Source of the DNA: Eledone cirrhosa
Taxonomy: Eukaryota
Length of the DNA: 64,000 nucleotides
Reading direction: 5' to 3'
Assembly (NCBI GenBank): GCA_964016885.1
Contig: OZ024743.1
Location: forward strand, 201,252,001-201,316,000
Shown: positions 8,843 to 9,540 of the stretch, piece by piece
Layout: every line of letters begins with the position of its first letter
How positions within the stretch are numbered: the stretch's first letter is position 1
Notes under the pieces: generated by a model
The model's database searches: none
What the model saw: the letters and a program-made list of their open reading frames with translations, nothing else
What the model was told of the DNA's origin: nothing
Translations under genes and position numbers: made by a program

Positions 8843-9540
8843 CTCGGACAGATTATCCCTAATCTGTTTCGCAATATATGATAATATATTTTTATTTTCA
8901 TTTTGTCATTCTGTCTGTTTCTTGGTTAAATATTTCAAGCATATGTGGTTTTTCAACCCTTGTAATTTTAGACACACGGTTTACTGTGTTTCTTACTATA
9001 TATTGTTAATCGGCTCAGTATTTATTTGTACTTTATACTTAGAGCTTAATGGTTACAGGGTTCTAATTCATATATATATTTCTGCTCCCTTACAAGTTGA
9101 GCTATTAAGCTGTGCGTGTTGGACTGTTATTTCTGTTCAATACACGCTTACCACGTTTGACTGGCGGAGCACGAGGTGATAAATTCATCTTTCTGTGTGA
9201 ACGTTGGCAAATAGTGTTTGTGACATTTAATCGCAATCTCTCGCTGATGAAGCCCAGGATTATCTGTTACAAACACACTCAGGGCGAAACAGATTAGGGA
9301 TAATCTGTCCGAGAGATATAATGGTTATTGAGGCGGTTTGTATTATGATAATATATTTTTATTTTCATTTTGTCATTCTGTCTGTTTCTTGGTTAAATAT
9401 TTCAAGCATATGTGGTTTTTCAACCCTTGTAATTTTAGACACACGGTTTACTGTGTTTCTTACTATATATTGTTAATCGGCTCAGTATTTATTTGTACTT
9501 TATACTTAGAGCTTAATGGTTACAGGGTTCTAATTCATAT
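8843..9540 (+). mobile_element. Non-autonomous Penelope-like/retrozyme-like element 1 (partial tandem, 467-bp period, with inverted 5' tag)
   Basis: Apparently identical direct repeats 8877-9070 and 9344-9537; perfect 30-bp inverted repeat 8843-8872 vs 9284-9313; internal hammerhead; flanked by (TA)n. Confidence 0.75.
9236..9317 (+). ncRNA. Type I hammerhead ribozyme
   Basis: Stem I ATCTCTCG(9236-43)/CGAGAGAT(9310-17); CTGATGA 9244-50; one extra A; stem II GCCC/GGGC; GAAA 9286-89; stem III CAGATTA-GGGA-TAATCTG; GUC triplet 9307-9309. Confidence 0.88.

What the first reader, a model, noticed from the sequence alone, without database searches (positions are those of the whole stretch)
8843..9540. 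467-nt partial-tandem element with a well-formed hammerhead: retrozyme-like or pseudo-LTR structure
Seen: a 194-bp segment is repeated apparently identically at a 467-bp offset (8877-9070 and 9344-9537), with the ribozyme between the copies. A perfect 30-bp reverse complement of the ribozyme's 3' half caps the left end. The first copy is followed by an internal short TA run at exactly the point where the second copy merges into genomic (TA)n. Inference: reverse transcription of a circular or tandem 467-nt RNA, primed by pairing of its internal UA run with the nicked TA target. Identical repeats imply recent insertion. The 7-bp stem III and GUC site suggest activity as a monomer.
Basis: partly seen in the sequence, partly recalled or inferred. 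Interest (0 to 1): 0.75.

Follow-up and report, generated by a model that had tools for sequence, protein, structure and literature searches.

The report
Hammerhead retrozyme with Penelope insertion marks
This is one copy of a young, protein-free 467-base repeat that carries a predicted self-cutting RNA and sits in TA microsatellites at many places in this animal genome; its copies end at two fixed sites, which likely records copying by a Penelope-type jumping-gene enzyme, a kind of element (retrozyme) already known from other animals.

Summary
In detail: a 203-nt exact direct repeat at 467-nt spacing, a 31-nt inverted cap, and a type I hammerhead motif cutting after 9309. The genome holds 221 exact ribozyme-motif matches, control 0. 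In 79 loci, 118 of 122 free 3' ends fall at two internal UA runs 73 nt apart, mostly against (TA)n; 35 of 39 head-to-head insertions pair one end of each kind. This is the published Penelope 'tail plus inversion' signature, and autonomous Penelope-like families here show it too. So: a non-LTR retrozyme, likely copied onto both nicked strands by a Penelope-type enzyme. The window's cap is an atypical second arm, not a family feature. A circular template is likely, not shown; no RNA run was listed. Two additions: four insertions fuse a retrozyme arm to an autonomous element arm, and a conserved upstream strand pairs with loop II and is predicted to out-compete the ribozyme fold, so monomer activity is uncertain. 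No partner matched by sequence. This scan noted the same architecture on other DNA. New member of a known kind.

The parts
8800..8841 (.). (TA)n target, left side (preceded by (CT)n 8706-8800)
8842..8872 (-). Short inverted arm: reverse complement of 9284-9314; crosses the ribozyme cut site; its RNA-sense 3' end lies at an atypical AU run (unit position about 5-11)
8873..8876 (.). 4-nt untemplated junction between the two arms
8877..9546 (+). Main arm: 1.43 units (unit positions 35-467, then 1-237) of the 467-nt non-coding repeat; 8877-9079 and 9344-9546 are identical
9214..9224 (+). Strand X, complementary to loop II bases 9266-9276; 8 core pairs invariant in four subfamily units; predicted to compete with the hammerhead fold or to form a pseudoknot
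9236..9317 (+). Type I hammerhead motif, extra nucleotide at 9251, 26-nt loop II, 8-pair stem III, predicted cut after C9309
9430..9463 (+). Conserved hairpin just 5' of site B (second copy; first copy 8963-8996)
   Evidence: 29 of 34 columns invariant in 4 units
9464..9473 (+). Site B: internal UA run, inner fixed 3' end of the family (read through in this copy)
9474..9536 (+). 'Tail' between sites B and A
9537..9546 (+). Site A: internal UA run, outer fixed 3' end; merges into genomic (TA)n
9547..9583 (.). (TA)n target, right side

Best explanation
This is one insertion of a multi-copy, non-coding 467-nt hammerhead repeat (a non-LTR retrozyme) that is likely a non-autonomous Penelope-like element, likely copied into (TA)n by the reverse transcriptase/GIY-YIG protein of an autonomous Penelope-like element. 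Shown: copies lie in (TA)n, are 5'-truncated at variable points, end at two fixed internal UA runs (A and B, 73 nt apart), form partial tandems up to about 7 units, and about half have a second, inverted arm, nearly always A paired with B. Inferred: the enzyme nicks both strands of (TA)n; each 3' end pairs with one UA run and primes reverse transcription; both polymerases can run past the ribozyme cut site and for more than one unit; the two cDNA ends are then joined head to head. Inferred with less certainty (about 55-60%): the template is a monomeric circle made by hammerhead cleavage and ligation. In the window copy the main arm started at A, and the second arm likely started at a cryptic AU run beside the cut site and stopped after 31 nt.
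For: 221 exact motif matches, control 0. 79 loci: free 3' ends A 63, B 55, other 4 of 122; TA run after 112 of 122; head-to-head pairs AB 35, A+other 3, BB 1 of 39; in the 67 pattern-picked loci A 52, B 47, other 2 of 101 and AB 28 of 30. Older subfamilies end at the homologous sites (read by eye). Intact autonomous RT + GIY-YIG families in the same genome show the same two ends, (TA)n targets and inverted arms. Two RT start sites bounding the 'tail' were shown in vitro for a Penelope-like protein that extends both strands (PMC11167929). In 7 of 37 two-armed loci neither arm is contained in the other, so one arm cannot be a fold-back copy of the other. Four of 53 single-arm loci join head to head with a 5'-truncated autonomous element. 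For one homogeneous template: units within an arm differ by median 1.2%, arms of one insertion by 1.1%, different loci by 2.5-3.0%; within-locus differences are private (shared 11 of 164 and 1 of 93, near the random 5% and 2%), and 17 private alleles are fixed in all units of one locus, 9 on both arms; 109 of 119 cut-site crossings are perfect and 1 of 40 shorter arms stops at the cut site.
Against: No autonomous partner matched by sequence: none among 84 loci of three families by profile search (best E 0.007, 12 bits, an AT-rich stretch; positive control strong), and local alignments to three terminal repeats were no better than shuffles. The chimeras involve two different autonomous families and other repeats, and could be insertions with target deletion. 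No compensatory double changes in any hammerhead helix. In the whole-circle fold the hammerhead stems I and II have pair probability near 0 and site A is partly paired. For the window copy and 30 of 37 two-armed loci the short arm is contained in the long one, so a template switch onto the element's own cDNA is not excluded there. One array (L014) shows a two-unit period, which a monomeric circle alone does not give. In vitro the Penelope-like protein used uncleaved RNA and started at sites not homologous to the target (PMC11167929). Only 1 of 9 predicted Xenopus retrozymes cleaved in vitro (bioRxiv 2026.07.22.740005). Loci were picked for holding the ribozyme, so counts of long arms and of cut-site crossings are inflated.
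Confidence: 0.85

Rival explanations
1. Same Penelope-type enzyme, but the template is a linear, uncleaved read-through multimer; the hammerhead is held off by the X/loop II helix and circles play no part in insertion.
For: Alternative fold predicted more stable in all four subfamily units, by 1.7-5.3 kcal/mol; uncleaved RNA was the dominant substrate in vitro (PMC11167929); two-unit period in L014; perfect cut-site crossings fit uncleaved RNA equally.
Against: Donor arrays carry about 1% unit heterogeneity, yet daughter insertions do not share within-locus variants and do carry private alleles on all units; only arrays still homogeneous could serve as donors. Core and stems are conserved across subfamilies whose body is 56% invariant.
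Confidence: 0.35
2. The inverted arms arise by self-priming or fold-back (as proposed for Penelope head-to-head repeats, PMC3846280), not by priming from the second target strand.
For: 30 of 37 two-armed loci, including the window copy, have one arm contained in the other; 2 have near-palindromic junctions.
Against: 7 of 37 have neither arm contained; outer ends are fixed and inner ends variable; heterologous two-armed insertions exist.
Confidence: 0.1
3. A solo or deleted terminal repeat (pseudo-LTR) of an autonomous element, or a satellite grown by unequal crossover, not a mobile unit of its own.
For: Retrozymes resemble Penelope terminal repeats in Xenopus (bioRxiv 2026.07.22.740005); some arrays show local duplication (L014, L094); some loci are segmental duplicates (L057-L060).
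Against: No copy among 79 + 40 loci lies as a terminal repeat of a matching ORF; copies are dispersed with independent truncations; the unit's longest ATG frame is 78 codons.
Confidence: 0.04
4. Assembly artefact (local duplication and inversion).
For: The two repeats are identical and no laid contig spans the whole stretch.
Against: The same anatomy recurs at dozens of independent loci with different breakpoints.
Confidence: 0.01

Closest known systems
Metazoan non-LTR retrozymes (Cervera and de la Pena 2020, PMC7229834; Li, Clavereau and Pollet 2026, bioRxiv 10.64898/2026.07.22.740005)
   Same: Non-coding, low-GC (36%) tandem unit of a few hundred bases with one type I hammerhead per unit; dispersed monomers to multimers; no LTR; co-occurs with autonomous Penelope-like elements.
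   Different: Unit of 467 nt is above the 170-400 nt circles reported for invertebrates, though within the 51-972 bp range of the preprint; long stem III and 26-nt loop II with a conserved upstream partner strand. In the parts I read, neither paper describes fixed double 3' ends, inverted arms or (TA)n targeting for retrozymes ('inverted', 'microsatellite' have 0 occurrences in PMC7229834). Circular RNA was shown there, not here.
Endonuclease-bearing Penelope-like elements (PMC8557442, PMC3846280, PMC11167929, PMC4209133)
   Same: Partial tandems, 5' truncation, inverted 5' copy, 'tail' at one end only, microsatellite/AT-rich targets, hammerhead with a bulged base 5' of stem II.
   Different: No ORF; tail about 73 nt (published 30-40 nt; 40 and 60 nt in two autonomous families here); both start sites are UA runs that match the target, unlike the anole element in vitro; full-size rather than minimal hammerhead.
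L1 twin priming and dual priming (PMC2837659)
   Same: Second target strand primes at an internal site, giving a head-to-head inversion with short microhomology or a few added bases; two-RNA ('dual') events are proposed there and fit the chimeras here.
   Different: Here both sites are fixed, there is no poly(A), and the arms overlap in sequence or exceed one unit.

Membership tests
Non-LTR retrozyme | Type I hammerhead motif in each unit | tested here: met
   Rfam match only weak
Non-LTR retrozyme | [quoted passage not shown] | tested here: met
Non-LTR retrozyme | No protein coded | tested here: met
   longest ATG frame in the tandem unit 78 codons
Non-LTR retrozyme | Self-cleavage of the RNA | not testable with these tools
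   prediction depends on upstream context
Non-LTR retrozyme | Expressed as circular RNA | not testable with these tools
   no RNA holder listed; genomic evidence indirect
Non-LTR retrozyme | Target-site duplication longer than 4 bp when present | tested here: inconclusive
   targets are (TA)n; one locus of 78 (L062) shows a duplication of about 20 bp
Penelope-like element (non-autonomous) | Partial tandem / inverted insertion with tail at one end (two RT start sites) | tested here: met
Penelope-like element (non-autonomous) | Microsatellite / AT-rich target | tested here: met
   112 of 122 free 3' ends
Penelope-like element (non-autonomous) | Sequence similarity to the terminal repeat of an autonomous partner | tested here: inconclusive
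   none found in three families, 84 loci; the genome's Penelope-like families were not surveyed in full
Penelope-like element (autonomous) | RT + GIY-YIG ORF | tested here: not met
Plant LTR retrozyme | Type III hammerhead in two LTRs, 4-bp target duplication | tested here: not met
   type I topology, tandem units, variable 5' ends

The most novel reading that the evidence does not exclude
The family records a Penelope replication step directly: a dimeric enzyme primes both nicked strands of (TA)n on one small RNA circle, one at each of two hairpin-marked UA runs, rolls past unit length on both, and sometimes takes a second RNA (an autonomous element) for the other arm; a conserved strand that pairs with loop II switches the hammerhead off in the template, or stabilises it as a pseudoknot.
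Probability: 0.3. Interest if true: 0.65.

Novelty: new member of a known kind. Interest (0 to 1): 0.42.

Why it matters
That Penelope-like elements mobilise animal retrozymes has been argued from co-occurrence and from terminal-repeat phylogeny; the two papers say the mechanism is open. This family carries the enzyme's footprint on its own copies (two fixed starts, paired inverted arms, a few chimeras with autonomous elements), and gives a 467-nt substrate plus intact candidate enzymes in one genome for a direct test of circle versus linear template. The conserved loop II partner strand is a testable control element for a genomic hammerhead. The class itself is known, and this scan has noted the same architecture several times, so the surprise is moderate.

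Tried and rejected
Rfam at gathering score: nothing; E-value mode: TA-driven microRNA matches rejected, weak HH9 kept as a hint. RNA evidence: no RNA holder listed; laying contigs of 4 runs of unstated kind showed presence only. Partner search: relaxed ribozyme and hairpin patterns found only related non-coding subfamilies and one unrelated hit; three protein searches found intact autonomous families with no DNA similarity to the unit; a 21-nt resemblance to one family is antisense and at E 1.7-6, rejected. The spacing cut site-B-A of family 3 resembles the unit's, but alignment scores do not beat shuffles. Empty-site search among held loci: 3 of 78 candidates, only L062 informative. Covariation: no double changes, controls not exceeded. 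The promoter scan is for bacterial promoters and was ignored. PMC8490949 passages gave nothing relevant. Earlier findings by sequence: none. Literature searches for a cephalopod retrozyme and for target-primed retrozyme insertion listed no paper describing this family; the library lacks most subscription journals and Repbase/Dfam were not available, so the family may be catalogued there.

Full report
Observation. The direct repeat is exact over 203 nt (8877-9079 = 9344-9546, spacing 467), the left cap 8842-8872 is the perfect reverse complement of 9284-9314, and both ends abut (TA)n. Between the repeats lies a type I hammerhead motif with an 8-pair stem I, CUGAUGA plus one extra base, a 4-pair stem II with a 26-nt loop, GAAA, an 8-pair stem III and a GUC site ending at 9309; it is the predicted fold of 9225-9330. 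Rfam gives nothing at gathering score and a weak HH9 match. A bulged base 5' of stem II is described as usual in Penelope hammerheads (PMC4209133, passages).

Family. The window lies in a 3.0-Gb animal genome; that it is a cephalopod is my guess, not a tool result. A DNA search had 1440 candidates, 40 scored. A 23-mer of the ribozyme matches 221 times, control 0; a looser pattern 227 times; older variants 77 times. I analysed 79 distinct loci: 23 from the 30 loci, 16 from the first 30 matches and 40 fetched around further matches; overlapping views of the same insertion were dropped. Two young subfamilies (about 467 and 450 nt) and two older ones (473 nt and about 480 nt) align end to end. The unit codes for nothing.

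Ends. Numbering the unit from the cut site, RNA-sense 3' ends fall at A (228-237) or B (155-166): 63 and 55 of 122 free ends, 4 elsewhere; 112 of 122 run into TA. A and B are two of only three alternating AU runs of 6 or more bases in the unit. Of 39 head-to-head insertions 35 pair A with B. In the 67 loci picked by pattern alone, with three segmental duplicates dropped, the counts are A 52, B 47, other 2 of 101 and AB 28 of 30. 5' ends are variable; junctions show a few bases of overlap or of added sequence. Forty loci of the older subfamilies show the homologous ends (read by eye; the oldest copies are more decayed). The window copy is one of the 4 exceptions: its second arm ends at unit position about 5-11, so the 'cap' is particular to this insertion.

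Enzyme. Flanks yielded RT and GIY-YIG frames (Pfam matches below the curated cut-offs). Three families have many intact copies (784, 796 and about 1280 aa). Families 1 and 3 end at two fixed sites 40 and 60 nt apart against (TA)n and carry inverted arms; family 3 has a minimal hammerhead motif in its terminal repeat. Published Penelope-like elements form partial tandems with an inverted 5' copy and a tail at one end (PMC8557442, PMC3846280; passages), and a purified protein nicks and extends both strands from two internal start sites that bound the tail (PMC11167929; parts 1-2 of 4 read). The retrozyme thus bears the Penelope footprint. No partner matched by sequence. Of 53 single-arm loci, 25 join simple repeat directly at their 5' end and 4 join head to head with a 5'-truncated autonomous element: L246, L269 and L271 with family 3 or its older variant, L266 with family 4. 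Others join unrelated repeats. These fit priming of the two strands by different RNAs (dual priming, PMC2837659, passages), but insertion with target deletion is not excluded, and they do not single out one partner.

Second arm. In 7 of 37 two-armed loci neither arm is contained in the other, which rules out fold-back as the general source; in 30, including the window copy, it is not excluded.

Template. Units within an arm differ by median 1.2% (52 arms), arms of one insertion by 1.1% (40 loci), different loci by 3.0% and 2.5%. Within-locus differences are mostly private, while 139 non-majority alleles are fixed across all units of their locus and 17 are private to one locus, 9 of them on both arms. 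Cut-site crossings are perfect in 109 of 119 cases and 1 of 40 shorter arms stops there. So each insertion was copied from one homogeneous, continuous template: a circle, or an uncleaved multimer from a still-homogeneous donor. Against a pure monomer circle, L014 has a two-unit period and L094 six identical units beside a different one, which may be later local duplication. No A>G excess was found.

Ribozyme context. Across 22 copies the three helices are 95% paired with one-sided changes only, and loop III changes while stem III stays; there are no double changes and the shuffle control is not exceeded. Folding the whole circle, or adding 20 upstream bases, replaces stems I and II by a helix between 9214-9232 and loop II: -34.1 against -28.8 kcal/mol in the window copy, and lower in all four subfamily units. 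Its 8-pair core is invariant on both strands in the four units (17 of 17 columns; 288 of 467 overall) and 91% paired over 11 pairs in 21 sequences, again without double changes. It could be an off-switch or a pseudoknot; pseudoknots between stems I and II are common in natural hammerheads (PMC3088659, passages). Folding energies cannot decide.

Comparison and verdict. The element meets the sequence criteria of metazoan non-LTR retrozymes (PMC7229834: passages and section 14; bioRxiv 10.64898/2026.07.22.740005: parts 1-3 of 5; supplements not seen and may list related families). Cleavage and circles were not testable here; no RNA run was listed. Both papers propose Penelope-like elements as the mobiliser and leave the mechanism open. 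I had the two-site reading before looking at earlier notes; one search then showed the scan had noted the same architecture in other families and genomes, which is not independent evidence. Verdict: real, new member of a known kind, with a clear enzyme footprint, a few chimeric insertions and a conserved loop II partner strand worth a bench test. Interest 0.42.

Noticed in passing
window 9584-10735 (L001 2710-3393 +): Directly right of the (TA)n begins a Tc1/mariner-type DNA transposon remnant; a 228-aa frame matches Pfam DDE_3 (E 1.9e-5).
   Followed up: partly
window 20359-64000 and 5471-8182: Two thirds of the window is one 18-bp-period GT-rich tandem array; a 46-bp-period array lies left of the finding.
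   Followed up: no
L175 (G000:C4:291919500-291929400) and L207: Two young two-ORF Penelope-like families (upstream ORF, then RT + GIY-YIG with a CxxC motif before the nuclease); my motif scan found no canonical hammerhead in the terminal repeat of family 1.
   Followed up: partly
L230 2587-6429: Very young Penelope-like family with a 1281-aa frame holding a long asparagine-rich insert, as described for rotifer elements (PMC3846280), and a minimal hammerhead motif in the terminal repeat.
   Followed up: partly
L123-L132 and further hits: A truncated copy of the old subfamily is repeated near the ends of many chromosomes, apparently as part of a subtelomeric duplication.
   Followed up: no
L180 8834-9004, L185 1558-1720, L191 2863, L199 1030: Other small hammerhead motifs with the same extra base after CUGAUGA, some in inverted pairs: likely further retrozyme or terminal-repeat families.
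   Followed up: no
L062 3578-3620 and 4402-4420: One insertion is flanked by a duplication of about 20 bp outside the TA runs, the only candidate target-site duplication seen.
   Followed up: partly
L107, L275, L277, L281, L282: Old-subfamily copies carry an insert of about 60 bp just after site B that also occurs alone elsewhere.
   Followed up: no
L101 1500-1545: An unrelated tandem pair with a CUGAUGA...GAAA motif after a helicase-like remnant; stems not checked.
   Followed up: no
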